DNA from: Candidatus Multivorans sp.
Lineage (GTDB): Bacteria; Acidobacteriota; Thermoanaerobaculia; Multivoradales; Multivoraceae
Length of the DNA: 64,000 nucleotides
Reading direction: 5' to 3'
NCBI GenBank assembly: GCA_965224025.1
Contig: OZ245033.1
Location: 2,624,001-2,688,000 of the forward strand
Shown here: positions 36,846 through 64,000 of the stretch, piece by piece
How the letters are laid out: each line of letters begins with the position of its first letter
How positions within the stretch are numbered: position 1 is the first letter of the stretch
Notes under the pieces: model-generated
Seen by the model: the letters and a program-made list of their open reading frames with translations, nothing else
Told to the model about the DNA's origin: nothing
Databases searched by the model: none
Program-made: the position numbers and the translations under genes

Positions 36846-38192
36846 GTGCAGGAAGACCGATTCGCAGCCGCCCTGGTGCTTCTGTTCGTCTCGCTGGCCG
36901 GGTGCGGCGGCGAGCGGGCGGCCGACGGTCGCGCGGAACGCCGGCCCAACGTGGTCCTGTACGTCGTCGACACGGTCCGCGCGGACCGGCTCGGCATATA
37001 CGGCTACGACAAGCCGACCTCGCCGCGGCTCGACGCGTTCGCGGAAGATGGCGTCGTGTTCGCGAACGCCTACGCCCAGTCTTCATGGACCCGGCCGGCG
37101 ATGGCGTCCCTCTTCACCGGCCTCCTGCCGCCGGCGCACCGGACCGTCGGCCGCCGTTCCGTGTTGCCCGGGGACGCGACGACCCTGGCCGAGATCCTGG
37201 CCGCCAACGGCTACGAGGGAATGGGCCTCGTCCGCAACCCGAACGTCGGCCGGGCCTTCGGCTTCGCCCAGGGGTTCACCCGCTTTCGCAGCGAGGATCG
37301 CGAGCGGGACGAGACGATGCTCGACCGGGTTCGGCTGTGGCTGGACGAGCGACAGGACACTGGATCGCCGTTCTTCCTCTATCTGCACGCGATCGACCCC
37401 CACGGGCCCTACGACCCGGCGCCCGAGTTCGAGCGGATGTTCGACGCCGGCGGCGCGCCCGGGCACTACCGCACGGTCCGGTACCTGCTTCAGTTGAACC
37501 GGGGCGAGGTGGAGCCCGATGCGGGCACCGCCGAGGCCTTGTCCCGTCTGTACGACGCGGAGGTGGCCCAGAACGACCGCGCCTTCGGCCAGCTTCTCGA
37601 CGAGCTCAACGTTCGTGGACTGGTTGGCGACACGGCGGTGATCTACGTGTCCGATCACGGTGAAGAGTTCGAGGAGCACGGCCGCTGGGAACATGGCATC
37701 TCTCTCTATGAGGAAGTGCTGCGGATCCCTCTGGTGATGGGTCTCCCGGGAGTGACGGCGCGGCGGGTCGAGACGCCGGCGCAGCACGTCGACCTGCTGC
37801 CGACCCTGCTCGCCTACCTGGGCATCGAGACGCCGGCGACGGACGGTCGCGATCTGCTTTCGGAGCCGAAACGGGGAGATGAACGGTCAGACGTCTACGC
37901 TCACCTCGACGTCGACAACCACCGGAGCTCCGCTGTGATCCGCGGCCACTACAAGTTGGTTCTGCCGCAGTCACGCTCCCAGGGCAGCGAGCCGATGCTC
38001 TTCGACCTGGAGGTGGACCCGGACGAGCGCGCGAACCTGGCGCCGAGCCGGCCGGAGATCGTCACGCGGATGACGGAGTTACTCGCTGGCAGAGGGCTCG
38101 CGGGCGAAGTCGAGCCCGCAGTCGAACTCGAAGATGACCAGATCGATGAGGACCTGCGGCGCAGGCTGAAGGCGCTGGGCTACGTCGACTAG
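36846..38192 (+). CDS. Sulfatase-like hydrolase (Ser-type) lipoprotein
   Basis: Lipobox LAGC, DTVRAD, SSWTRPAMASLFTG, DPHGPY and SDHGEEF. Confidence 0.92.
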   Translation: MQEDRFAAALVLLFVSLAGCGGERAADGRAERRPNVVLYVVDTVRADRLGIYGYDKPTSPRLDAFAEDGVVFANAYAQSSWTRPAMASLFTGLLPPAHRTVGRRSVLPGDATTLAEILAANGYEGMGLVRNPNVGRAFGFAQGFTRFRSEDRERDETMLDRVRLWLDERQDTGSPFFLYLHAIDPHGPYDPAPEFERMFDAGGAPGHYRTVRYLLQLNRGEVEPDAGTAEALSRLYDAEVAQNDRAFGQLLDELNVRGLVGDTAVIYVSDHGEEFEEHGRWEHGISLYEEVLRIPLVMGLPGVTARRVETPAQHVDLLPTLLAYLGIETPATDGRDLLSEPKRGDERSDVYAHLDVDNHRSSAVIRGHYKLVLPQSRSQGSEPMLFDLEVDPDERANLAPSRPEIVTRMTELLAGRGLAGEVEPAVELEDDQIDEDLRRRLKALGYVD

Positions 38193-38194
38193 CG

Positions 38195-38351
38195 CTAGAA
38201 GCTTGCGCGGCAGAAACTGGGTGCGCCGGCGTGCCATCCGTGCGCCCGAGTGACGGGCGCACGGAATGGTTCACAGGTGGCGCGGATCGCGCCACCTGGG
38301 TTCCCGCCGGCATCCTGCGCGAAGCGTCGGCTTCCGTGAGTTCTGCCGCGC
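38195..38351 (+). repeat. Complete dispersed repeat (outer inverted-repeat shell plus inner module; copy 2), unoccupied target for both IS110 elements
   Basis: Inverted repeat GCGCGGCAGAA at 38205-38215 and TTCTGCCGCGC at 38341-38351, with inner hairpins. Lies between convergent genes. Confidence 0.9.
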
Positions 38352-39511
38352 TAGCGCTGCGGCGCCAGCTCTCGCAGGCACTCTGCCAGCAGTTCGACCC
38401 CTTCGCGGATCCTGGCGACGGAGGGGCAGGCGTAGGCCAGACGCAGGAACGGCACGTCCTCGCGCCCCGCATGGTAGGCGGCGCCGTGGCCGTATTCGAG
38501 GCCGCGCCGCTCGCCGAGCGCAAAGAGCGCCTTGCGGTCCACTTCCTCCGGCAGGCCGACCCACAGGAACATGGCGCCGGCAGGCTTGCGCCAGGTGCAG
38601 ACGCCGCCGAGCTCCTCGGCGAGCGCGGCCAGCAATGCGTCACGCTTCGGCAGCAGGGCGGCGTTGTTGCGCTCGATCTGAGCCGGCAGGCGGCCGCGCA
38701 GCAGTTCCGCAACGATGCTCGAGGACAACGTGCTCTGGCCGGCATCGAAGCGCCGATCGAGAAACCGCTGTTGGAGCGGCTGCCTGGCCAGGAAGTAGCC
38801 GATCCGGACTCCGGCGCCGAGGATCTTGGACAGCGACCCGATGTAGACGACTCCTTGGCCGCCGGCCAGGCTGTAGAGCGACTGCGGCGGGCGCGGCGCG
38901 TCGTCGTAGTGGACGTCGGCGTAGCAGTTGTCCTCAACCAGAAGGACCTCGAACTCGCGCGCCGCTTCGATCATCTCGAGGCGCCGCTCGCGCGGCATCA
39001 CGGCGCCGGTCGGGTTGTGGTAGGTCGGCAGGGTGTAGATGAAACGCGGCTTCCTGCCGTCCGCGGCCAGGCTCCCCAGCGTTCGGCGCAGTTCGCCGAT
39101 ATCCATGCCCTGCTCGTCCGTCGGCACGCCGACCAGGCGGTAGCCGAGCCCCCGGTAGGCGCCGAGGGTGCCCGAGTAGGTCGTCTCCTCCGTGATCACG
39201 ATGTCGTCCGGCTCTTCCATCAGCGCCCTGCCCACCAGCGTCACCGCCTGCATGGAGCCGTTGGTCAGCGCGACCTCGTCGGGGTCGTACTCCACGCTTT
39301 CGCGGTCCGCTTCGCGCCGGGCAAGCACTTCCCGCAGACCGGGATGGCCGAGATCACCAGGGTAGAAAGCGAAGTTCTTCCCGATGTCGAGAATCGCGCG
39401 TCCGGCCGCCTCGGCCATCTCGGCGGCCGGGAACGCTTCGGGCGCCGTCATGCCGACCCGCATCGGAATCGGGTTCGCAGGCGGGCCACTCGAGTCTGGA
39501 GCGCCGGTCAT
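38351..39511 (-). CDS. PLP-dependent aminotransferase class I/II (MocR/ARO8-like)
   Basis: TNGSMQA, HNPTG, EDNCY and GSLSKILGAGVRIG. Confidence 0.92.
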   Translation of the reverse strand: MTGAPDSSGPPANPIPMRVGMTAPEAFPAAEMAEAAGRAILDIGKNFAFYPGDLGHPGLREVLARREADRESVEYDPDEVALTNGSMQAVTLVGRALMEEPDDIVITEETTYSGTLGAYRGLGYRLVGVPTDEQGMDIGELRRTLGSLAADGRKPRFIYTLPTYHNPTGAVMPRERRLEMIEAAREFEVLLVEDNCYADVHYDDAPRPPQSLYSLAGGQGVVYIGSLSKILGAGVRIGYFLARQPLQQRFLDRRFDAGQSTLSSSIVAELLRGRLPAQIERNNAALLPKRDALLAALAEELGGVCTWRKPAGAMFLWVGLPEEVDRKALFALGERRGLEYGHGAAYHAGREDVPFLRLAYACPSVARIREGVELLAECLRELAPQR

Positions 39512-53518: not shown

Positions 53519-53610
53519 GCGCGGCAGAACGATCGGAGGCCGGCGCTTCGCGCCGGATGCCGGTGGGGACGCCGGCGCACTCAGTTTCCGCCGCGCAAGC
53601 TGCCAGGAAC
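53519..53610 (-). repeat. Dispersed repeat, outer shell without the inner module (copy 5)
   Basis: Minus strand GCTTGCGCGGCGGAAACTGAGTGCGCCGGCGT-CCCCACCGGCATCCGGCGCGAAGCGCCGGCCTCCG...TTCTGCCGCGC aligns with both ends of copy 2. Confidence 0.85.
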
Positions 53611-54648: not shown

Positions 54649-55904
54649 GGGGCCGTTCCTTCCTTCCCGTCTCCCAGACACACGGGAAGCGCAAGCAGGA
54701 AGAGCGCCCAGCGCTGGATCTCCGTATCGCGCCAGTTCGCCTCGAACAGGCCCGCGACGTTGAGGGCCAGCAGAGCGAAGAGAACACCCAGATAGAGGTC
54801 CGCGCGGGGTCCGGCTCGCCCTCCCTCGCCGCGGTAGCGCTCGATCGCCGGAGCCGCCGCCGCGCCCATCAGCCACAGGTAGCAAAGCAGCGAAGGGATG
54901 CCGCGACTTGCGGCCATGTGGACGAACGTGTTGTGCAAGTGCTTCACGCGCGCCCGCACGGAGGTCGGATGACGGTAGACCGGGTACCACTCGCGGACCA
55001 TGGCCGGGCCGATGCCTGTGAGCGGCCGGTCCGCGATCATCCGGCCGCCGGCCCACAGCATGCAGAGCCGGTCGTAGTTCGAGGGGTTGCGGACGTCGAC
55101 CACGGACGTGGCGCGTTGCCAGTAGGTCGGCCAGAAGGTGGGCGCCACCGCGGCCAGCGAAACGGCCGCCAGCACCAGGGCGGCGGCGTAGCCCACGAGG
55201 ACCCGGCGACGCTGCAGAGTGAAGGCGGCGGTGGCGACGGCGAAGGCGCCGAGCCAGGCGCTGCGGGTGAGGGTCAAGACGAGCGTTCCGCCGACAATGG
55301 CCAGCACGAGCCAGTTCACCTGCCGGCGCCAACCGTGGCTGCTGGAGACACGCCCGGCGATCAACGCCAGACCGAGCAGGAGCACGCCGGAGAAGGTCAT
55401 GTAGTGCGAGAACGGCCCCGGGATCCGCTGGTGCAGGGGTCCGTAGTCGGTGAAGACGAACTGCGTCAGGCCGTAGACGGCCAGGACCGCCGAGATACCG
55501 ATGACCGCGGCGATCACAACCCTCACCTGCCGTTCGCCCCGGACCAGCAGGAGCGCCAGTGGCAGGGTGAGGACGGAGTAGAGCTGGGAGAGTTCCTGGA
55601 GACTCGTCCCCGGCGCGTAGGAAAGGACCGCCGAGAGGACAAAGCAACCGGTATAGGCGGCCAGGGGGTAGAGGAGCCGCCGCCGTCGCCGGCGATCCTG
55701 GTCGCCGGCTGTGAAGAACAGTCGTCGGCGACTGAACGCGCTCCAGACCAGCGTAAAGAACAGCAGGATGTTCGAGAGCGCGATCCCGAAGGTGGTCACG
55801 AGCTGGCCCAGGAAGAGCCAGAAGCCCGCGTTTCCCCTGGCTTCGCGGCAGGGCCGGGGCACGGCGCGCTCGATCGCCCCCATCGGCCCCTGCGTCCGCT
55901 GCAT
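54645..55904 (-). CDS. O-antigen ligase family (Wzy_C) membrane protein
   Basis: Multiple TM helices, TLTRSAW, PLTGIGP and HLHN. The start is ATG 55904 or 55883; the ORF-track start lies inside the IS. Confidence 0.85.
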   Translation of the reverse strand: MQRTQGPMGAIERAVPRPCREARGNAGFWLFLGQLVTTFGIALSNILLFFTLVWSAFSRRRLFFTAGDQDRRRRRRLLYPLAAYTGCFVLSAVLSYAPGTSLQELSQLYSVLTLPLALLLVRGERQVRVVIAAVIGISAVLAVYGLTQFVFTDYGPLHQRIPGPFSHYMTFSGVLLLGLALIAGRVSSSHGWRRQVNWLVLAIVGGTLVLTLTRSAWLGAFAVATAAFTLQRRRVLVGYAAALVLAAVSLAAVAPTFWPTYWQRATSVVDVRNPSNYDRLCMLWAGGRMIADRPLTGIGPAMVREWYPVYRHPTSVRARVKHLHNTFVHMAASRGIPSLLCYLWLMGAAAAPAIERYRGEGGRAGPRADLYLGVLFALLALNVAGLFEANWRDTEIQRWALFLLALPVCLGDGKEGTAP

Positions 55905-55991
55905 GGCGGTCAGTCTATGCGGGTCCGGCTCACTGGGACTCTCCACCCTTTAGCAAGTGTGTTTTGGGGAGGCTGCTGCGGGTCAGGGAGG

Positions 55992-57245
55992 TCATGCGAC
56001 CTGGGCATGGCATCGCTTGTTGGGGTCGAAGAGAGTTCGGTCTCGGAGCATGGCGCAGGCGACGCCGAGGAGTCGGTCGACGAGTTGTCTGATGGCGCGT
56101 CCGTGCGTCTTGCCTTCGGCTTTCATGGCGTCGTACTTGGCGCGGCTGATCGGGTCGTGCTGGATGGCGACTCGTCCCCAGTGATAGACGGCGTCGCTGA
56201 GGTGTTCGTTGGCGGCGAGTCGTCGCATGACGATGAGCTTCTTGCCGGACTTGACGGTCACCGGCGCCACTCCGCAGAGGCAACGCAGTGCCTCGTGGTC
56301 TCTGCGGCCCAGGCTTTGATCGGCCTCGGAGAGCAGGGTGGCGAGGCCGACCTTGCCGAGTCCGGGCAGCGACCTGAGGATGGCGGCGTCGCTCGGCTTA
56401 GGGGAGTCGTCGTCGTTTTCCCGTTGGGCCGGGGCCTCGAGTGCGCGGGTCATCCGCTCCAGCCGCTTGTCGGCGTCGGCGAGTTGGCGGCAGACGGTGT
56501 CGAGCACCGGCCGGAGGAGTCCTATGTGTTCGACGGCGGCCTTAACGGTGTCCGGGGAAACGGCGATCGGCTCGGCCCGCAGTTGATCGCGCAGTTGGGC
56601 GGAGGTCAGGCGCCGGATGCGGTGTTCCTTGAGCAGTTTGGCGAGCGTGGCTTCGCGCAGCCGTCGAGCCTTGCCGGGGGTCGGCGCCAGTCGCCACAAG
56701 GCCAGCGCGAAGGGCGCCGACACCTCGTTCTTGACCACGGCGAGAAACTGCGGGTAGTAGCGCCAGAGCTGGTCGCGGACCTGGTTCTCCAGGCGGTTCT
56801 TCTGGCCGACCAACTGCTTGCGGCCGCGGGACACCTCGCGCAGCATGACGATGGCGGCATCGGATGGTTGCACGCGGTTCAGGCACTCGGGGTCGGTGCG
56901 AAGCGCGGCGGCGAGCACCCGTGCATCGCGGCGGTCATCCTTGGCGCCGGCGACGGAGAAGCGGTCCCTGAAGCGGTCGAGCTGCTTGGGGTTGATCGAA
57001 TGGACGGCGAAACCCCGCTCCAGGAGAGTCTCGACCACCGGTCCGTGCGGCACCTCGATGGCGACGCCGATCTCGTCCGGAGACGTCGGTCGGGTATGTC
57101 CAAGGAGCCAGTCGGCCATGGCGGCAAGTCCCTTGCCGCTGTGGTCGAACGCCCGCTCCCCCCTCACCTTGCCGTCCCGATCCAGCACACACACGTGGTG
57201 GGTCTCGGACCCCCAGTCCACGCCGGCGAACCACGTCCTGGTCAT
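55992..57245 (-). CDS. IS110 family recombinase/transposase
   Basis: GVDWGS, AIE, KDDRRD (DEDD) and GVAPVTVKSG (catalytic Ser); GGAGG RBS. Confidence 0.96.
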   Translation of the reverse strand: MTRTWFAGVDWGSETHHVCVLDRDGKVRGERAFDHSGKGLAAMADWLLGHTRPTSPDEIGVAIEVPHGPVVETLLERGFAVHSINPKQLDRFRDRFSVAGAKDDRRDARVLAAALRTDPECLNRVQPSDAAIVMLREVSRGRKQLVGQKNRLENQVRDQLWRYYPQFLAVVKNEVSAPFALALWRLAPTPGKARRLREATLAKLLKEHRIRRLTSAQLRDQLRAEPIAVSPDTVKAAVEHIGLLRPVLDTVCRQLADADKRLERMTRALEAPAQRENDDDSPKPSDAAILRSLPGLGKVGLATLLSEADQSLGRRDHEALRCLCGVAPVTVKSGKKLIVMRRLAANEHLSDAVYHWGRVAIQHDPISRAKYDAMKAEGKTHGRAIRQLVDRLLGVACAMLRDRTLFDPNKRCHAQVA

Positions 57246-57279
57246 CTCGTCCTCCTTCTCCCTTGCGGTAGTGTTGCCT

Positions 57280-57436
57280 GGTCGGCATGCCGCGTTGCCT
57301 GCCCGTACCTGTACTGGTGCTCTAAGGCACTGACTCTCCACTGGGCGTCCAACGCGGCGAAGCAGCCAGGGCACGGGTCCCAGCCAGGTGCTCGAAGCAC
57401 AGTGCGCCGGTGGTCGCTCCTGGCTGCTTGCCGACC
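57280..57436 (-). ncRNA. Predicted bridge RNA core of IS110-A (target- and donor-binding loops)
   Basis: Nested stems 57280-87/57429-36, 57289-97/57350-58 and 57361-70/57419-28. Loop segments match the target and donor junctions. Confidence 0.85.
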
Positions 57437-57647
57437 TTCCTTCAGTGACTCCGGCAGGCCGGAAACGCAACCGACCGGCGGTCTCGGCTGCGGAAGCTGC
57501 CGGTCCGGCGGAAAACGGCAGACCGTTTCCCGCCGGACCTTGGAAAACCGGCAAGCCGGTTTCCCACAGCTACCGCAGCCACGACGGCTACTGGTCGATT
57601 CCACCTCTCTCAACGACCCACCAGAATCCACCCGAGAAAGGTACAGG

Positions 57648-57760
57648 TGCGCCGGCGTGCCATCCGTGCGCCCGATGACGGACGCACGGACTGGTTCACG
57701 GGTGGCGCGGATCGCGCCACCCGTGTTCTGGCCGGCATCCGCCGCAAGGCGGAATCCGGC
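57648..57760 (+). repeat. Dispersed repeat (copy 4) interrupted by IS110-A
   Basis: TGCGCCGGCGTGCCATCCGTGCGCCC...CACGGGTGGCGCGGATCGCGCCACCCGTG...GCCGGCATCC. Confidence 0.9.
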
Positions 57761-57777
57761 TGGGCTCCGAAGGCGGC

Positions 57778-60378
57778 CTACCGTCCCCGGCTCCGCACGC
57801 CCGTTGCCACGAGCCCCGGACGCAGCACTTCGACCCGGATGTCCCTGAGCCCATCCGGGCCGGCCGCCGCGACCGACGGCGGTTCGAAGGCGATCAGGTA
57901 CTGCGAACGAAGAGCGCGCGCAATCTCGCGGTAGATGCGGTCCAGGTCGTCCACCGATTCGGCGGCGTGGTACTGGCCTCCGGTGCGGTCGGCAAGCTTC
58001 CGCAGCGCATCGATCGTCGCCGGGTCGCCTACGCGCAGCGCGATCGGGTAGGTCGCAACGCCGGCCAGCTCGACCTGGGCGAGCACGCGCTCGAAGTCGA
58101 GGTTGCTGTCGGTGTCCGCGCCGTCGCTCAGGATGACGAGAGCCCGCCGGTCCGGCCGTCCGGCGAACGAGGAGACCGCGTAGGCGATGCCGTCGTAGAG
58201 CCGGGTCGCGCCCCAGGCGCGCAGCCCCTCGGCGGCGTAGCGAAGCTGCCGGGCGTCGCCGACAAAGGGCGTCAGCCGTTCGAGATCGTGGTTGAAGACG
58301 AGGAGGCTGGCGGCGTCGCGCTCGGTCAGGACCCGTTCGAAGAAGCGCTGCGCGCTCGTAGCCGCGACCCGTACGCTGCGTCCCAGGGAGCTGGAGACGT
58401 CCATCAGCAGGGCAACGTTCAGCGGCCGGTCCGCGAGGCTGCGGAAGTCATGGACCGGCGCCTCGATGCCCTGGTGAAGAACCCGAAAGTCCCCCGGTCC
58501 GAGGTCCGTCGCCGGGCCGGTCTGCCGGCCGCCGACGGAGACGAGGATGTCGACCAGGCGCACATCGATCTGCTCAGGCGCCCCGGCGCCCAGGAATGCG
58601 AGATCCTCGACCTGCTCGCCGGAGCGGAGCGTGGCCGCGGCGCGAACGAAGCTGAGGGGTAGCCGCAGCCCGGCCGGAACCCGGCAACGGAAGGGTGGCG
58701 CGGTCATCCGCTCGAGCAGGTCCGCGCCCAGGAAGCAATCGACGTGCTCGAGTTCGCGTCCGGACGGCACGTCGACGCGGACGGCCAGGTCGAGCGCCTG
58801 GTCGAGGCGTGCCGGGTCGGGAGGTTCAAGCGCGATCGCGAACGGGCGCTCCTCCCGTTCGACGTCGAGGCCGTGCCGGGCCACGAGCCGCCCCACGCGG
58901 TCAAGGCCACGGAGTTCGATCCGGTGACGCTGCTCCGGCAGATCGATGGCGTGAACGAAGGGCGGCTCGCTGACCGTGGCCACGTTCTCGCCGTCGCGCC
59001 GGAAGACGACCTCGGCGATGCCGGGGCTGGCTGTGGCGCGGGCGGTGAACGTGGCGCCCAGCACCCGGCCGTCCGGCGCCAGAAGTTCGACGCTCGGCAA
59101 CTGGTTCAGGACGATCGTCTCCCGCCGGGTCAGCAGGTGGAGCCCCGGCACGTCGGGCGGTGTGGAAAGCGCCGGCACGTCGACCGTGTTGCTGCTGTGG
59201 AGCAGCCCGCGCCCCAGGCCGTCCTCGGCGCGGAGTTCGAAGCGGTAGGCGCCGGGAGGCAGGCGACGGTAGAAGTCGAGCGCGATGCCCGGCGAACGGT
59301 CACCGGTGTCCGTCGCGTCGACTGGAATGCCGCCGCTGATGTGGTGCGTGACGACGAAGGCGTCGGCGAGCCGGTTGCCGAGGAAGACATCGCCCGTGAT
59401 CGTCACCCGGTCGAGGATCTGGCCGGCGCCGAGTTCGGCGAGATGCTCGGGAGGCAGCCGCAGCCGGCCGCGCATCGCGGTGCGGCGGTTCTCGCTGCCG
59501 AGGGCCTCGAACTCCAGCGAAACACCTGGCATTGCCATGGCAGCGGGATCGAGGACGGCCTCCACGCGCAGGAAGTCGTCGACCCAGCTCGAGGTCCGGT
59601 CTTCGGCCCCGGTCGGTTTCCCTATCCAACCGAGCCGCTCGACGAACCGTCGCCAACCTGCCGCGCGTTCGAGCCGTCGCTGCAACCGGGCGCGTTCGTT
59701 CGCGGTCAGGCAGCGGCGGCGTTCCGCCTGTTCCAGTATCCGGGGCGCGCCGACTCGCGGGGGAGGAGTGGCGTCGTCACTCGGGCTGTCCGAAGCTTTG
59801 GGGGCGAAAGCGAGATCCACGCCGGATTCCGGCGACCACACTCGCATCGATCGGGGGTCGAAGTTCACTTGCTGGACGAACGCGAGCAGGAGTTCGCCCT
59901 CGCCCCGTGGCGGCGGCCGGCCGAGTTGGTGTTCGAGTTGCCATCCGTACCAGGTCCAGATCTCAATCCGGCGCAGGGTCGATTCGCACGGCTCGACCAT
60001 CTGCCGGTCAGCCGGCTTGCCGGCCAGCAGCACGGCGCGCTCCATTGCCGGCGACCGCTCGCGGAGCTGGTCGCGGGCTCGCCGGTTTGCTTGCCAGCGT
60101 TCGAGCAGGCGCGGCGGACGCGCCGCCCAGAAGGCGCGCAGGAAGCGCTCGCGCGCGCCCGGGCCTTCGAGTTGTTCGAAGGCCCGGCGCTCGCGGTCGG
60201 TGAGCAGCGGTTCGACCTCGGCGAACCACTGGGTGTAGAAGTCGGGCAGCCGGGCTTGCGGGCGGCGACTGCCCTGGGCCTCCGTGGGGAGGGCTGCCGA
60301 GAGCAGCACCGTCGCGGCGAACAACGTCGCAGCCGCGATTGGCGGCGCTCCAGCGGCGAGCGCGGGCGACGCGGCCAC
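57778..60378 (-). CDS. VWA domain protein with N-terminal GWxTD-like region (Acidobacteria-type)
   Basis: W...V.PLLT..E...F...RERFLRAFW, MIDAS-like DVSSS, GATRLYD, LSDGAD and LRSQY. Start uncertain. Confidence 0.85.
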   Translation of the reverse strand: MAASPALAAGAPPIAAATLFAATVLLSAALPTEAQGSRRPQARLPDFYTQWFAEVEPLLTDRERRAFEQLEGPGARERFLRAFWAARPPRLLERWQANRRARDQLRERSPAMERAVLLAGKPADRQMVEPCESTLRRIEIWTWYGWQLEHQLGRPPPRGEGELLLAFVQQVNFDPRSMRVWSPESGVDLAFAPKASDSPSDDATPPPRVGAPRILEQAERRRCLTANERARLQRRLERAAGWRRFVERLGWIGKPTGAEDRTSSWVDDFLRVEAVLDPAAMAMPGVSLEFEALGSENRRTAMRGRLRLPPEHLAELGAGQILDRVTITGDVFLGNRLADAFVVTHHISGGIPVDATDTGDRSPGIALDFYRRLPPGAYRFELRAEDGLGRGLLHSSNTVDVPALSTPPDVPGLHLLTRRETIVLNQLPSVELLAPDGRVLGATFTARATASPGIAEVVFRRDGENVATVSEPPFVHAIDLPEQRHRIELRGLDRVGRLVARHGLDVEREERPFAIALEPPDPARLDQALDLAVRVDVPSGRELEHVDCFLGADLLERMTAPPFRCRVPAGLRLPLSFVRAAATLRSGEQVEDLAFLGAGAPEQIDVRLVDILVSVGGRQTGPATDLGPGDFRVLHQGIEAPVHDFRSLADRPLNVALLMDVSSSLGRSVRVAATSAQRFFERVLTERDAASLLVFNHDLERLTPFVGDARQLRYAAEGLRAWGATRLYDGIAYAVSSFAGRPDRRALVILSDGADTDSNLDFERVLAQVELAGVATYPIALRVGDPATIDALRKLADRTGGQYHAAESVDDLDRIYREIARALRSQYLIAFEPPSVAAAGPDGLRDIRVEVLRPGLVATGVRSRGR

Positions 60379-60427
60379 GCGAACGCGGCCGCCCCGGAGG
60401 AGGCGCTGATCCGACCGGGCCGAGGCC

Positions 60428-61237
60428 CTACTCCGACAGCAACGCCTTGATCGCCTCGGAAGGCTCGAAGACGCTCGGATCGACGTCGTTCCAGGTGACG
60501 GACTCGATGGTCTGGGTCATCTCCATACTCATGAAACTGATGACCACCCTGCTCGGGGCCATCAGACCGCCGAACTCCTTGTAGTCGCTCGAGCTGATCG
60601 TGACATCGACAGTGCCCATCTCATTCGTCTGTGTCGTCTCGATGCCGATCAGGAGGCCGGTGTCCTTGGCGAAGTAGTGCGAGGATTCGTTGCCGTCGGT
60701 GTCGACGAGGTCGAGCTGATAGGCCGCTTGGCCGTTCCACTCTGTTTCCCCGGCCGCCTGCTGCTCGGGGTAGATCTCGGCGTACTCCAACTCGGAGTAG
60801 AAGCGGGCGTCGCGCGCGGCGTCCTTCAGCATCTGGCCATCCAGGAGGCGCGTGCCCTGCATTGGATCGTCGGCCCAGCCGATCTCGCCGTTGTAGACCT
60901 CAAGGGTCTCGCCAAAGCCGGCCAGGTTGGTCGACTCGTAGTACTTGTCGGGCGCCATCTGGTAGATCGTCGTTTCACCGGAGACACCCATTGCGGGCAG
61001 GTCGAACGCGGCCTTGATTGTCGCGGATGTATGCGAGCGCACAGCTTCCTCGCCACCGATCGCTTCAACTAAGCGGGCGATGATCTTCTCTTCCTCTGTC
61101 AGCTCTCGGGGTGGTGGGACTTCTGCCGTCGCCTCTTGGGGTGGTGGATCTGCGTTGTAGGCAGAGCAGGCGCCGAGAATCAGACCGCAGCAGGCAAGTG
61201 CGAGCACGGTGCGGCGGCGAAGGGAATGGAAGGACAT
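60428..61237 (-). CDS. Lipoprotein, LolA-like/DUF620-like fold
   Basis: Lipobox LGAC, EAIGG, YFAKDTGLL and SDYKEFGG. Confidence 0.75.
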   Translation of the reverse strand: MSFHSLRRRTVLALACCGLILGACSAYNADPPPQEATAEVPPPRELTEEEKIIARLVEAIGGEEAVRSHTSATIKAAFDLPAMGVSGETTIYQMAPDKYYESTNLAGFGETLEVYNGEIGWADDPMQGTRLLDGQMLKDAARDARFYSELEYAEIYPEQQAAGETEWNGQAAYQLDLVDTDGNESSHYFAKDTGLLIGIETTQTNEMGTVDVTISSSDYKEFGGLMAPSRVVISFMSMEMTQTIESVTWNDVDPSVFEPSEAIKALLSE

Positions 61238-61411
61238 GAGCGGGTCTCCTTCGGAGGATGTGTTGGTTGTCGTACCTGACTACGTAGAAGCGGCGGCGCG
61301 GTTGCGGTGCGTTCCCTAGGAGTGTCCGCAGCGTTGTCGCTGCGCTGTCGCGCAGGGAACAGGCAGCGAGTAGCCAACGTTACAGCGGCGTCGTGGGTTC
61401 ATAGAGTTGGC

Positions 61412-61567
61412 CGCGCTGGGCAGCGAGGCCGCGCAGGCACTGGTGTGTTGGCGCCCGACTAGGAGTTTGGCCCGGACCGTGATCGGCGCTCTGACGCTGG
61501 CGGCGCGGCTTGTGTCGCGACCCCGTATGCAAGATTGAGCTTTTCGCCGCGGTCTCTGCCCAGCGCG
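61412..61567 (+). ncRNA. Candidate guide (bridge-like) RNA of IS110-B
   Basis: Perfect 12-bp stem 61412-23/61556-67 enclosing CTAGGAG (identical to the left junction) and ATGCAAG (identical to the right junction). Confidence 0.6.
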
Positions 61568-61600
61568 ACGATTGGATTCCACATCTACGGGAGGCAGGGG

Positions 61601-62920
61601 ATGGCAAAGCGGAAGGCGGAGCGTCTGGAAGTCGTTCACCCGGATTGCGCCGGTGTGGACGTAGGCAAGCGCAAGCACTACGTGGCGGTGGCCCCGTCGC
61701 GTTTCGAGCGGCCGGTGCGCAATTTCTCGTCGTTCACGGAGGACCTCGAGGCGATGGCCTCGTGGCTTCAGGAGTGCGGCGTGCGTGAGGTGGCGCTGGA
61801 GTCGACGGGGGTGTACTGGATTCCGGTGTTCGAGGTGCTGGACCGGGCGGGGTTCGAGGTGCATCTGGTGAATCCTCGGGCGACCAAGCAGGTGAGTGGC
61901 CGCAAGAGTGACGTTCTGGACTGCCAGTGGATCCGGCAGTTGATGAGCTACGGGCTCCTGCGCGGTGCGTTTCGCGCGCCGGACGAGTTGTGTCCGCTGC
62001 GTTCGTACACGCGGCAGCGCGCCCAGTTGGTCCGCGACCGCAGCCGCGCGGTGCAGCACATCCAGAAGGCTCTGGTGCAGATGAACGTGCAGTTGGACAA
62101 CGTGCTGAGCGACATCATGGGCAAGACCGGCCAGTTGATCGTGCGCGCGATCGTCGCCGGCGAGCGCGACGGCGCGGCGCTGGCCCGTCACCGGGACGGT
62201 CGCTGCAAGGCTGGTCCGGCTGTGATCGCGGCGAGTTTGCAAGGCAACTGGCGAGACGAGCACCTGTTCGCTCTGGGCCAGGCGCTGGCCCGCTACGACA
62301 TGCTGCAAGGCCAGATCGAGATGTGCGAGAAGCGCATCGACGCCGAGCTCGACGGTCTGGCCCAAGACGGCGTCGAGGACGCGCCGCCGCCCGGTTCGAA
62401 GGCGCGCGAGCGCGCCCTGCGGAAGCGGCTGCATCGCATGCTCGGCGTGGACCTGGTCGCCATTCCGACGGTCGGCGTCGAAACCGCGCTGACCTTCGCC
62501 GCTGAGATCGGCCCGGACCTGTCCCGGTTTCCCTCGCAGGGCAACTTCTGCTCGTGGCTGTGTCTGGCTCCACCGACCAACATCAGCGGCGACAAACGGC
62601 TGAACGGCCCTCCCGTGAAGCAGACCAACCGGGTCGGCCAGGCGCTGCGCCAAGCCGCCACCACAGCCCGCAACAGCAAGACCGCCATCGGAGCCTCTCA
62701 CCGCCGGCGTCTCCAGCACATGGAGAAGGCGAAGGCCATCAAGGCCACCGCTCATCAACTCGGCCGACTGATCTACGCCATGCTGACCCACGGCGAAGAG
62801 TACGTCGAGCGCGACCTCGCCGAAATGGAGGCCGTCCGACGCGAACGACAAATCAGAAACCTGCAGCGTCAGGCCCGCCGCCTGAATCTGGCTCTCGTGC
62901 CGACCGAACATGCCGCCTGA
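61601..62920 (+). CDS. IS110 family recombinase/transposase
   Basis: GVDVGK, ALESTGVYW, RKSDVLD and LAPPTNISG; GGGAGG RBS. Confidence 0.96.
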   Translation: MAKRKAERLEVVHPDCAGVDVGKRKHYVAVAPSRFERPVRNFSSFTEDLEAMASWLQECGVREVALESTGVYWIPVFEVLDRAGFEVHLVNPRATKQVSGRKSDVLDCQWIRQLMSYGLLRGAFRAPDELCPLRSYTRQRAQLVRDRSRAVQHIQKALVQMNVQLDNVLSDIMGKTGQLIVRAIVAGERDGAALARHRDGRCKAGPAVIAASLQGNWRDEHLFALGQALARYDMLQGQIEMCEKRIDAELDGLAQDGVEDAPPPGSKARERALRKRLHRMLGVDLVAIPTVGVETALTFAAEIGPDLSRFPSQGNFCSWLCLAPPTNISGDKRLNGPPVKQTNRVGQALRQAATTARNSKTAIGASHRRRLQHMEKAKAIKATAHQLGRLIYAMLTHGEEYVERDLAEMEAVRRERQIRNLQRQARRLNLALVPTEHAA

Positions 62921-62974
62921 ATCGCGCAACCTGCGCTGCCAACAAGGAACCCCTACCCGTTTGTTCCATGCAAG

Positions 62975-63020
62975 CGTGCGCGGCAGAACATGGGGTGCGC
63001 CGATTCTTCCTGCGGCGCAC
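62975..63020 (+). repeat. Dispersed repeat remnant (copy 6) abutting IS110-B, with a hairpin
   Basis: CGTGCGCGGCAGAACATGGGGTGCGCCG aligns with 38202-38228; hairpin 62995-63002/63013-63020. Confidence 0.7.
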
Positions 63021-63024
63021 GCAG

Positions 63025-64000
63025 CTAGCTTGCCCACTTCCTGGCTGCGGCCAGGGCCTCTTCCGACGGTGGCAGAGTGGGCTTCAGGCGCGCGGTCACG
63101 TTGAAGGGCTCCGTGTCGATCTCGTCGAGGCCCTGCTCGCCGGCGAGGACGGCGCGTTTCCATTCCTGCTGCTGGTCGTCGCGTTCCTGGAACTCGGGCA
63201 TCACTTCGCGCGCGAACAGCTCCAGGCTGCTCTTGATGTCCTCGTGGGTGTTCTTGCCGGCCTGGTTCAGCAGGATGACCTGGTCGACGTGGGCCCGTTC
63301 GAGTTCCAGCAGGCGCTCGCGGATCGTGGCGGGTGAGCCGATCAGTTCGCTGCGCGAGCGCTTCCGGCCTTCGGGCGTCTGCTTCCACTCCTGGTAGCGC
63401 TCCCAGAAGTTGTTCGACCTGGGCTCGAACGGACCTTCCTTGTTGTAGAGCTGCAGGGCGAACTGGAAGAACGTCCAGCCGTCGGCCTTGTGTTGCGCCT
63501 CTTCGTCGGTGGGCGCGCACATGAAGCCGCCGACCACGGCGAGGTTCGGGTTCGTCTGGTAGTCGCAGAGCCTCTGCTGGTCATGGGCGAAGGTGTTGTA
63601 GTACGCGTTGACCCAGGCGCGGGCGGAGTCGAGGTCGACGAACTTGAAGCACAGCGCGCCCATGCCGCGATGCGCGGCGTAGCGGATCGTTTCGAGTTGC
63701 GAGCAGGCGACCCAGAGCGGCGGGTGGGGCCGCTGCAGCGGCTTCGGAATCACGTTGCGCAGCGGGAAGTCGAAGTAGTGGCCGTGATACTCCCAGCCCT
63801 CTTCCCAGAACATCGGCAGGCAGGCCTGGACGGCCTCCTCCCACACGATCCGCTTGTCGCGGAAACTGCGGCCGAAGGGGTGGAGTTCGGTGACGCTCGA
63901 GCCCTCGCCGAGCCCGAGTTCGACGCGGCCGTTCGAAACCAGGTCGAGGGTCGACACCCGCTCGGCGACGCGGGCCGGGTGGTTCGTCGTCAACTGGACG
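63025..64000 (-). CDS. LLM-class flavin-dependent oxidoreductase (5' end outside the window)
   Basis: HPARVAERVSTLDLVSNGRVELGLG, PKPLQRPHPPLWVAC and LELFAREVMP. Confidence 0.92.
   Translation of the reverse strand, partial: VQLTTNHPARVAERVSTLDLVSNGRVELGLGEGSSVTELHPFGRSFRDKRIVWEEAVQACLPMFWEEGWEYHGHYFDFPLRNVIPKPLQRPHPPLWVACSQLETIRYAAHRGMGALCFKFVDLDSARAWVNAYYNTFAHDQQRLCDYQTNPNLAVVGGFMCAPTDEEAQHKADGWTFFQFALQLYNKEGPFEPRSNNFWERYQEWKQTPEGRKRSRSELIGSPATIRERLLELERAHVDQVILLNQAGKNTHEDIKSSLELFAREVMPEFQERDDQQQEWKRAVLAGEQGLDEIDTEPFNVTARLKPTLPPSEEALAAARKWAS

What the first reader, a model, noticed from the sequence alone, without database searches (positions are those of the whole stretch)
38195..38230. 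Two unrelated IS110 recombinases aimed at adjacent sites of the same repeat; an empty double target is present
Excising IS110-A restores ACTG-GG-TGCGCCGGC, identical to 38216-38230 (core 38220-21). Excising IS110-B restores CTAGG-AG-CGTGCGCGGCAGAA, matching 38195-38215 with 2 mismatches (core 38200-01). Two divergent RNA-guided elements with different cores therefore appear to share one multicopy safe harbour, 20 bp apart and in opposite orientations. IS621 targeting REPs is the known precedent; dual use of one repeat is my inference. It also predicts repeat-to-repeat rearrangements and offers a natural pair of possibly orthogonal bridge recombinases.
Basis: partly seen in the sequence, partly recalled or inferred. 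Interest (0 to 1): 0.8.

Follow-up and report, generated by a model that had tools for sequence, protein, structure and literature searches.

The report
Two IS110 elements sharing one repeat
Two distantly related RNA-guided insertion sequences in this genome each home to their own short motif, and in one subfamily of a mobile intergenic repeat the two motifs lie 18 bases apart; this is a real but modest variation on something already described in Pseudomonas putida.

Summary
Removing IS-A (window 55938-57647, minus strand) restores ACTG-GG-TGCGCCGGC, identical to 38216-38230. Removing IS-B (61323-62974) restores CTAGG-AG-CGTGCGCGGCAGAA, 2 mismatches from 38195-38215.

Both are IS110-family elements: 12 and 14 full copies, and transposases 28% identical over the N-terminal domain. 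They are divergent, not unrelated.

Both carry bridge-RNA-like loops whose guide segments match their flanks and vary with them in related genomes. So the proposed targets and cores (CC/GG and AG) are right.

"One shared safe harbour" is only partly right:
- The repeat is modular, looks like a small mobile element (MITE-like), and occurs across the genus.
- IS-A's motif occurs 98 times (up to 1 mismatch), but only 26 lie beside the arm that IS-B targets.
- None of the 12 full IS-A copies in this genome sits in such a double-target copy.
- Only 2 of 14 IS-B copies do.

Real use of double-target copies does occur. One locus carries both elements with the predicted 18-nt spacing. In a congener, 4 of 8 IS-A-type copies are in double-target copies.

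At 38195, the IS-A half is exact. The IS-B half has one G·T-wobble mismatch beside the core, which is untested.

ISPpu9 and ISPpu10 of P. putida already share one REP. Interest is moderate.

The parts
38195..38354 (+). One copy of a genus-wide, MITE-like intergenic repeat (long subfamily), bounded by CTAG at 38195-98 and at 38351-54. It is absent at the orthologous site of several congeners.
   Evidence: Multicopy hits in many genomes of the genus, and adjacent flanks without the repeat in G050, G037, G047 and G016.
38195..38215 (+). IS-B-type target half: left target CTAGA, core AG (38200-01), right target CTTGCGC..., followed by the rest of the repeat arm. There is one mismatch to the invariant CTAGG, which would be a G·T wobble with the guide.
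38216..38230 (-). Exact, unoccupied IS-A target. In IS-A orientation it reads GCCGGCGCA-CC-CAGT, with the core at 38220-21.
53571..53606 (-). Second, degenerate double-motif copy in the window. The IS-A core is changed (CT for CC) and the IS-B left half reads CTGGC-AG.
55938..57647 (-). IS-A: an IS110-family element of 1710 bp including one CC/GG core. Left end about 400 nt, right end about 54 nt.
55992..57245 (-). IS-A transposase gene (417 aa).
   Evidence: PF01548 E = 1e-33, PF02371 E = 1.3e-12, NF033542 175.6 bits.
57281..57435 (-). IS-A bridge-RNA region with two internal loops. Coordinates give the matched motif around each guide. Target loop: LTG CCGGCGCAC(U) 57401-10, hairpin 57388-400, RTG GCUGGG within 57377-85. 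Donor loop: LDG GGAGAGUC within 57331-41, hairpin 57317-30, RDG GUACAGG within 57306-16.
   Evidence: fold, z = -8.0; guide and flank covariation; coordinates.
57648..57770 (+). Body of the repeat copy that hosts IS-A. After in-silico excision it aligns closely to 38222-38310, but it lacks the IS-B arm.
61316..61322 (+). Left target plus core of the window's IS-B copy (CTAGG-AG). It is the left edge of a short repeat copy whose remainder is 62975-63028.
61323..62974 (+). IS-B: an IS110-family element of 1652 bp including one AG core. Left end 278 nt, right end 54 nt.
61601..62920 (+). IS-B transposase gene (439 aa).
   Evidence: PF01548 E = 1.1e-25, PF02371 E = 2e-11, NF033542 271.1 bits.
61413..61566 (+). 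IS-B bridge-RNA region. LTG CUAGGAG at 61459-65. LDG AUGCAAG at 61527-33. Candidate right-target guide GCGCAGG at 61431-37 (tentative).
62975..63028 (+). Right part of the short repeat copy that hosts IS-B, ending in CTAG (63025-28). The orthologous site in G016 has a single CTAG and no repeat.

Best explanation
Two divergent IS110-family (bridge-recombinase) insertion sequences live in this genome. Each is directed by its own non-coding RNA to its own short motif.

- IS-A recognises GCCGGCGCA-CC-CAG(T/C). This is the 3' tail of a GC-rich hairpin module that occurs in several repeat families.
- IS-B recognises CTAGG-AG-NYTGCGC. This is the junction between a flanking CTAG and the terminal arm of a MITE-like repeat. 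Recognition is dominated by the 7-nt left half.

In one subfamily of that modular repeat (about 26-33 copies here) the two motifs lie 18 nt apart in opposite orientation, so such a copy is a potential landing site for both elements. 38195-38230 is an unoccupied copy of this kind.

The co-location is most simply a by-product of two site-specific elements each exploiting abundant, harmless intergenic repeat DNA. It need not be a dedicated shared harbour.

Shown: element boundaries, cores, family membership, guide-flank complementarity and covariation, repeat census, one co-occupied locus, and use of double-target copies by IS-A relatives.

Inferred: RNA expression, activity, and competence of 38195-38215 for IS-B.
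For: Family: both proteins carry PF01548 and PF02371 and exceed the NF033542 cut-off. Both elements have a long left end, a short right end and a 2-nt core at both junctions.

IS-A guides:
- The left end folds far better than shuffles (z = -8.0, 0 of 100 shuffles as good).
- It forms two stem-closed loops. CCGGCGCAC(U) equals left target plus core. GCUGGG is complementary to CC-CAG(C/T). GGAGAGUC equals the right end plus core. GUACAGG is complementary to CC-TGTAC.
- The one guide position that varies among the 12 copies (C/U) is the position that varies in their flanks (C/T).
- In congeners, guide and flank change together: G016 GUCCGCGCAC with GTCCGCGCA-CC, and UCUGGG with CCCAGA; G038 UGCUGGG with CCCAGCA in 6 of 7 copies seen; G049 CACUGGG with CCCAGTG in 2 of 2.

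IS-B guides:
- In 30 of 35 anchored relatives, the 7-mer at the CUAGGAG position is found exactly at the left junction. This holds across 6 different 7-mers (CTAGGAG, CCAGGAG, ATGCAAG, ATGAAAG, ATGCGAG, ATTGTAG).
- The AUGCAAG position tracks the right end (ATGCAAG, ATGCGAG, ATGAAAG, ATGGAAG).
- A consensus fold of 18 relatives has 15 of 36 pairs with compensatory changes.

Empty sites. Uninterrupted repeats read CTAGGAG directly followed by (A/C)(C/T)TGCGCGGCAGAA.

Right-half preference. NNTGCGC follows 10 of 14 occupied CTAGGAG sites against 21 of 113 empty ones (Fisher p = 1e-4).

Co-use of one repeat copy:
- C1:5042507-5045399 reads IS-B, a 59-nt mini-element, AG, 18 nt, GG, then a truncated inverted IS-A.
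- IS-B copies at C1:225355 and C1:3024494 have an IS-A motif with 1 mismatch at the predicted distance.
- IS-A-type copies inside double-target copies: G037 4 of 8, G046 1 of 3.
Against: No RNA, circle-junction or activity data exist for either element.

In this genome, 0 of 12 full IS-A copies adjoin the IS-B arm. With 7 of 35 exact motifs being double-target, about 2.4 would be expected (my arithmetic), so this is weak evidence of avoidance or of chance. G038 has 0 of 7.

The co-occupied locus is degenerate. The spacer matches the consensus at 13 of 18 positions (counted by eye). The IS-A there is truncated, so the rest of the repeat cannot be seen.

IS-B's left end alone folds no better than shuffles (z = 0.26). 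Its right-target and right-donor guides are not securely identified. The candidate GCGCAGG gave 4.78 against 4.31 pairs of 7 in a permutation test (p = 0.001 in one of 16 registers tried; related sequences are not independent).

The LTG and flank C/T association within IS-A copies is not significant on its own (Fisher p = 0.24).

Five of 35 anchored IS-B relatives showed no exact 7-mer at the junction, and 3 further loci could not be anchored.
Confidence: 0.78

Rival explanations
1. The composite repeat is a shared, functionally meaningful safe harbour. Both elements are aimed at it, so dual occupancy and repeat-to-repeat rearrangements between the two systems are a regular feature of this genome.
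For: There are 26 near-exact IS-A motifs beside the IS-B arm. One locus is co-occupied with exact geometry. 4 of 8 IS-A-type copies in G037 are in double-target copies, one of them with an exact CTAGGAG arm. NNTGCGC is enriched at IS-B sites.
Against: 72 of 98 IS-A motifs and 94 of 113 empty CTAGGAG sites lie outside double-target copies. 0 of 12 full IS-A and only 2 of 14 IS-B copies here are in such copies. No genome copy has both halves exact (by-eye reading). No rearrangement was examined.
Confidence: 0.2
2. CTAGGAG is the first 7 nt of IS-B rather than target DNA. IS-B would then have no sequence-specific left target, and 38195-38201 would be irrelevant.
For: DNA upstream of CTAGGAG is unrelated in all 14 copies, and right flanks are variable.
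Against: The 7-mer recurs inside the left end at a position that changes in step with the left flank across 6 types in relatives. Uninterrupted repeats carry CTAGGAG directly joined to the arm. The orthologous site in G016 has a lone CTAG and no repeat. The AG core is duplicated at the right junction.
Confidence: 0.03
3. The conserved flanks are carried along with the elements (ends mis-set) or reflect duplication of whole IS-plus-flank segments, not target choice.
For: The three IS-A copies with T in the left flank also share C after CCCAG, so some sites may be related by descent.
Against: Beyond 9-11 nt (left) and 5-6 nt (right) the flanks of the 12 IS-A copies differ. 35 exact empty motifs exist. 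All four IS-A guide segments match exactly these lengths. Independent insertions in 9 other genomes show the same junctions.
Confidence: 0.03

Closest known systems
ISPpu9 and ISPpu10 of Pseudomonas putida KT2440 (IS110 family)
   Same: Two divergent IS110-family elements in one genome use the same multicopy extragenic repeat. [quoted passage not shown] It also describes a small non-autonomous passenger (ssr9) that uses the ISPpu9 transposase, comparable to the 59-nt mini-IS-B here.
   Different: Here the two elements are far more divergent (28% identity over the N-terminal domain only). Their cores are not reverse complements of each other (CC/GG versus AG/CT). They use two different sites 18 nt apart. 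The two motifs are separable modules that co-occur only in a subfamily of the repeat. No RAYT-type gene was found here, so the repeat may not be a classical REP.
IS621 of Escherichia coli, the bridge-RNA prototype
   Same: It has a DEDD plus Tnp-domain recombinase. [quoted passage not shown] The core dinucleotide is shared. Its natural targets are REP elements (PMC11208160, passages). IS-A follows this layout exactly.
   Different: Different target, donor and core. IS-A has an extra, highly structured 5' part of the left end of about 200 nt. In IS-B the strand-identical guides lie 3' of their hairpins in the consensus fold, the reverse of the IS621 order.
ISPpu10 target-encoded stem-loop (bioRxiv 10.64898/2026.03.19.712850)
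   Same: The preprint (passages) reports that natural ISPpu10 targets lie in a REP stem-loop that pairs with the left target. It also reports that ISPpu10 insertions into REPs bound segmental amplifications of more than 100 kb. Here the GCCGGC of IS-A's left target is the 3' arm of a GCCGGC(C)...GCCGGC hairpin in 10 of 12 insertion sites (my reading).
   Different: No functional test here. 2 of 12 IS-A sites lack that hairpin.

Membership tests
IS110 family / bridge recombinase elements | N-terminal DEDD (RuvC-like) domain and C-terminal Tnp domain in one protein | tested here: met
   Both proteins match PF01548 and PF02371 above the cut-offs, and NF033542 'IS110 family RNA-guided transposase' at 175.6 and 271.1 bits against a cut-off of 140. 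Individual catalytic residues were not inspected.
IS110 family / bridge recombinase elements | No long terminal inverted repeats; left end much longer than right end (IS110 group); 2-nt core present at both junctions | tested here: met
   IS-A has a left end of about 400 nt, a right end of about 54 nt, and core CC. IS-B has a left end of 278 nt, a right end of 54 nt, and core AG.
IS110 family / bridge recombinase elements | Left-end RNA with a target-binding loop and a donor-binding loop whose guides match the target and the joined ends | tested here: met
   IS-A: all four guides were found, with covariation across genomes. IS-B: the left-target and left-donor guides were found, with covariation across 6 and 4 types. 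Its right-side guides remain tentative.
IS110 family / bridge recombinase elements | Expression of the RNA, a circular intermediate, and RNA-dependent recombination | not testable with these tools
   Only contigs of DNA runs were available. No RNA runs held the locus.
REP / REPIN elements | Short GC-rich imperfect palindrome, extragenic, in many copies | tested here: met
   98 copies of the IS-A motif with up to 1 mismatch, mostly preceded by a GCCGGC-type hairpin. The window copies are intergenic.
REP / REPIN elements | Cognate RAYT (Y1 transposase) gene in the genome | tested here: not met
   0 matches to PF01797 in the 100%-complete genome; the control genomes gave matches.
MITE (miniature inverted-repeat element) | Terminal inverted repeats, target-site duplication, presence/absence polymorphism between relatives | tested here: inconclusive
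   Inverted arms are present (...TGCGCGGCAGAA / TTCTGCCGCGC...). At two loci the empty orthologue has one CTAG where this genome has CTAG on both sides of the repeat. The exact duplication length is ambiguous at 38195 (4 or 6 bp). No transposase with matching ends was found near 18 PF01609 hits.

The most novel reading that the evidence does not exclude
The double-motif repeat is a natural two-slot landing pad for a pair of mutually orthogonal bridge recombinases (cores CC and AG, unrelated guides). Both slots do get filled: once in this genome, and the IS-A slot repeatedly in a congener.

In addition, the IS-B lineage may be a bridge-RNA layout variant. Its strand-identical guides lie 3' of the loop hairpins, and targeting rests mainly on a 7-nt left half. 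It also mobilises 59-nt end-only mini-elements in trans. Some relatives have retargeted their left-target guide to their own right end, which would build tandem arrays.
Probability: 0.3. Interest if true: 0.55.

Novelty: new variant of a known kind. Interest (0 to 1): 0.38.

Why it matters
For genome biology, this is a clean natural example of layered parasitism. A mobile intergenic repeat carries landing sites for two different RNA-guided insertion sequences, and one of those has its own miniature hitch-hiker.

For tool builders, it offers two compact recombinase and RNA pairs from one host, with different cores and guides and a ready-made natural double target on which to test orthogonality.

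It is not a new principle. REP targeting by IS110 elements, sharing of one REP by two such elements, and IS110-bounded rearrangements are already in print.

Tried and rejected
Reads at the site. One sample (runs X9 and X10, probably the source of the assembly) holds the locus only as contigs. Contigs cover 37700-38229 and 38220-38681 in the empty form. The loose ends at 38192-38216 are flanks of paralogous repeat copies; the 38200 one was checked, the others are inferred from their low agreement. No IS junction was seen, but contigs cannot show rare variants, so this says nothing about low-frequency insertions.

Rfam. No family reached its gathering score in 55800-63100. The two hits with E below 1 are chance-level.

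Diverged IS-B copy. The 85%-identical copy at C1:2129243-2130584 lacks the left end, so it could not serve as a guide comparator.

IS-B right-side guides. The short variable stretch 3' of the left-target guide (CUCU here, UUUU or UUCU in relatives) does not match the right flanks beyond the core (by-eye reading). The 7-mer GCGCAGG on the 5' side is the better candidate but remains tentative. The right-donor guide was not identified.

Autonomous partner of the repeat. No RAYT was found. None of the 18 PF01609 loci checked is flanked by the repeat's arms.

A loose search for the IS-B right-end motif with 2 mismatches gave mostly noise and was replaced by a 1-mismatch search.

Supplementary files of the three papers were not opened. 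Tables of ISPpu9/ISPpu10 insertion sites there could refine the comparison.

Papers. PMC12288879, bioRxiv 10.64898/2026.03.19.712850 and PMC11208160 were read as passages from 'find' only. All other titles were seen only in search listings. I did not search specifically for "two IS110 at adjacent sites of one repeat" beyond those two searches, so I do not claim it is absent from print.

Full report
**What is at the coordinates**

Window 38195-38230 reads CTAGA-AG-CTTGCGCGGCAGAA-ACTG-GG-TGCGCCGGC. It is the left end of a 160-bp intergenic repeat copy (38195-38354) bounded by CTAG on both sides. The window is part of a 5.14-Mb, 67.5% G+C genome in 3 contigs.

**The two elements**

A Pfam DEDD_Tnp_IS110 search of the whole genome gave 32 matches in two main score classes. 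BLASTN with the two window copies found the following:
- IS-A: 12 full-length copies (97.5-100% identical) plus truncated ones.
- IS-B: 14 full-length copies (99.5-100%) plus one truncated copy at 85%.

In the window, IS-A is 55938-57647 on the minus strand (1710 bp with one core). IS-B is 61323-62974 on the plus strand (1652 bp).

The transposases have 417 and 439 aa. Both carry PF01548 and PF02371 and pass the NCBIfam "IS110 family RNA-guided transposase" model. They share 28% identity over 177 aligned N-terminal positions (E = 6.6e-8). They are divergent relatives, not unrelated proteins.

**Checking the observation**

All 12 full IS-A copies are flanked, in transposase orientation, by GCCGGCG(C/T)A-CC|...|CC-C(A/G)G(T/C). 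Beyond that the flanks differ. All 14 IS-B copies are flanked by CTAGG-AG|...CATGCA-AG|, with unrelated DNA upstream of CTAGG.

The IS-A site equals 38216-30. The IS-B site differs from 38195-38215 at two positions.

The IS-A 15-mer occurs 35 times exactly, 98 times with up to 1 mismatch and 217 times with up to 2. About 0.1 exact copies are expected from composition.

**IS-A is guided as an IS621-type element**

Its 398-nt left end is strongly structured (z = -8.0). The 3' 155 nt form two stem-closed internal loops.
- Loop 1 has CCGGCGCAC(U) on the 5' side, identical to the left target plus the first core base. The final U can wobble-pair with the second. After a 13-nt hairpin, the 3' side has GCUGGG, complementary to CC-CAG(C/T).
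- Loop 2 has GGAGAGUC, identical to the right end plus core, then GUACAGG, complementary to CC-TGTAC (core plus left-end start).

This is the layout described for IS621 (PMC11208160, passages).

Among the 12 copies, the only variable base within the guide loops is a C/U in the left-target guide. It aligns with the only variable flank base, C/T. The association is not significant by itself (p = 0.24).

Relatives of IS-A occur in 13 of 41 other genomes of the genus. In them, guide and flank change together:
- G016: GUCCGCGCAC with GTCCGCGCA-CC, and UCUGGG with CC-CAGA.
- G038: UGCUGGG with CC-CAGCA in 6 of 7 copies.
- G049: CACUGGG with CC-CAGTG in 2 of 2.

**IS-B**

Its left end contains CUAGGAG (61459-65) and AUGCAAG (61527-33). 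These are identical to the left flank plus core and to the right end plus core. They lie 68 nt apart, close to the corresponding spacing in IS-A.

A scan of reference genomes returned 59 related loci (45-86% protein identity), titled as Pseudomonadales and related metagenome-assembled genomes.
- In 30 of 35 loci that could be anchored, the 7-mer at the CUAGGAG position is found exactly at the left junction, across six different 7-mers.
- The AUGCAAG position follows the right end across four types.
- Five anchored loci showed no exact match, and three could not be anchored.
- A consensus fold of 18 relatives has 36 pairs, 15 with compensatory changes.

This settles that CTAGG-AG is target DNA, not part of the element.

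In that fold, the strand-identical guides lie 3' of their hairpins, the reverse of IS621 and IS-A.

The right half is less clear. NNTGCGC follows 10 of 14 occupied CTAGGAG sites against 21 of 113 empty ones (p = 1e-4). A variable 7-mer on the 5' side of loop 1 (GCGCAGG, complementary to CCTGCGC) pairs with right flanks better than permuted pairings in one register of 16 tried (4.78 versus 4.31 of 7; p = 0.001). I treat that guide as tentative.

**What the repeat is**

Copies containing both motifs share this layout: C(T/C)AGGAG-(A/C)(C/T)TGCGCGGCAGAA-ACTGGGTGCGC(C/G)GGC-hairpin-hairpin-...GAGTTCTGCCGCGCTAG.

The family is multicopy in most genomes of the genus. At two loci the orthologous site in congeners lacks the repeat and has one CTAG where this genome has CTAG on both sides. 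That is what a mobile element with a CTAG-containing duplication would leave. The duplication length at 38195 is ambiguous.

No RAYT gene was found. No IS4/IS5-type transposase is flanked by these arms.

The repeat is modular:
- The arm TGCGCGGCAGAA heads several subfamilies, some without an IS-A motif. The short copy that hosts the window's IS-B is one of these.
- The IS-A motif tails several hairpin families that lack the arm.

**How far the two elements really share a repeat**

- Of 98 near-exact IS-A motifs, 26 adjoin the arm. Of the 35 exact ones, 7 do.
- Of 113 empty CTAGGAG sites, 19 carry the arm.
- None of the 12 full IS-A copies has the arm on its right-target side.
- After in-silico excision, the window's IS-A site aligns closely to 38216-38310 but has no arm.
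- Two of 14 IS-B copies (C1:225355 and C1:3024494) are followed, at the predicted distance, by an IS-A motif with 1 mismatch. About six others sit in arm-bearing copies without an IS-A motif, and the rest in other contexts.

Positive evidence for joint use exists:
- C1:5042507-5045399 reads IS-B, a 59-nt mini-element, AG, an 18-nt spacer, GG, then an inverted truncated IS-A.
- In G037, 4 of 8 IS-A-type copies have CAG(T)TTCTGCCGCGCA... on the right-target side, one with an exact CTAGGAG arm. In G046, 1 of 3 do. In G038, 0 of 7.

**The site 38195-38230 itself**

The IS-A half is exact. The IS-B left half is CTAGA-AG. The A-for-G beside the core was not seen in 14 IS-B junctions or in 14 mini-element junctions, which read CTAGGAG 10 times, CCAGGAG 3 times and TTAGGAG once.

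It would form a G·T wobble with the guide, as the tolerated CCAGGAG forms U·G. The right half CTTGCGC equals that of two occupied sites. So it is a plausible but unproven IS-B target.

By eye, no copy in the genome has both halves exact.

Public contigs of one sample show the site empty. They cannot show rare variants.

**Comparison with what is known**

REP targeting by IS621 and the bridge-RNA mechanism are established (PMC11208160). In P. putida KT2440, ISPpu9 and ISPpu10 both insert into the same REP target site and share 57.8% similarity (PMC12288879). ISPpu10 insertions into REPs bound large amplifications, and its targets sit in a stem-loop (bioRxiv 10.64898/2026.03.19.712850).

The present case differs in four ways:
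- The divergence between the two elements is much greater.
- The cores are not complementary to each other.
- The two sites are distinct and adjacent.
- The motifs are separable modules.

**Verdict**

This is a new variant of a known kind, of moderate interest.

Noticed in passing
Genome C1, e.g. 527126, 539412, 690781, 1070843, 1123840, 1504053; tandem copies at 721625-721681, 3516473-3516532 and 5044166-5044224 (outside the window): A family of 54-62-nt mini-elements made of an IS-B-like left-end start (a hairpin plus GCGC..GGAAACAGGG) fused to the IS-B right end (TTGTTCCATGCA-AG). They have no transposase or guide RNA. They are inserted at C(T/C)AGG-AG like IS-B (14 solo copies, plus longer and tandem forms). 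They are presumably moved in trans by IS-B-type recombinase. Short hits to the IS-B left-end start in other genomes of the genus are probably the same.
   Followed up: partly
Related loci L058, L059, L077 (LTG ATGCAAG), L080, L082 (LTG ATGAAAG): In L058, L059, L077 and L082 the left-target guide equals the element's own left-donor guide. In L080 it differs from it by one base (ATGAAAG versus ATGCGAG). All five sit directly after another right end (...TTCCATGCA-AG or ...TTCCATGAA-AG). These elements seem aimed at right ends of their own kind, which would build tandem arrays.
   Followed up: partly
window 61413-61566 and alignment A1: In the consensus fold of IS-B-type left ends, the guides identical to the left target and left donor lie on the 3' side of their loop hairpins. 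IS621 and IS-A have them on the 5' side. Targeting in this lineage seems to rest mostly on the 7-nt left half.
   Followed up: partly
Genome C1:4322367-4322573 (outside the window); also G047:C1:4186908-4187125: An orphan copy of just the two-loop bridge-RNA part of IS-A (208 nt, 96% identical). It has no IS ends or transposase and carries one base change in each right-side guide. A 98%-identical 218-nt piece occurs in a congener.
   Followed up: partly
window 57440-57645 (minus strand): The first 200 nt or so of the IS-A left end, upstream of the bridge-RNA loops, form a long helix with two near-perfect nested hairpins (GGGAAACCGGC...GCCGGUUUUCC and GGUCCGGCGGGAAACGG...CCGUUUUCCGCCGGACC). This part is conserved in relatives down to 73% identity. 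Its function is unknown. Three 126-nt solo copies of it occur elsewhere in the genome.
   Followed up: no
Genome-wide; window 38195-38354, 53571-53606, 57648-57770, 62975-63028: The intergenic repeats are built from shuffled modules: a CTAG edge, the arm GAG..TGCGCGGCAGAA, the ACTGGGTGCGCCGGC hairpin tail, one or two further hairpins, and an inverted arm. No RAYT gene and no matching transposase were found, so what moves them is unknown.
   Followed up: partly
Genome C1:534728, 743470, 829460: The three IS-A copies with T in the left flank (GCCGGCGTA-CC) are also the three with C after CC-CAG. Only 2 empty copies of the T-variant motif exist in the genome, so 3 of 5 T-variant sites are occupied against 9 of 44 C-variant sites.
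   Followed up: no
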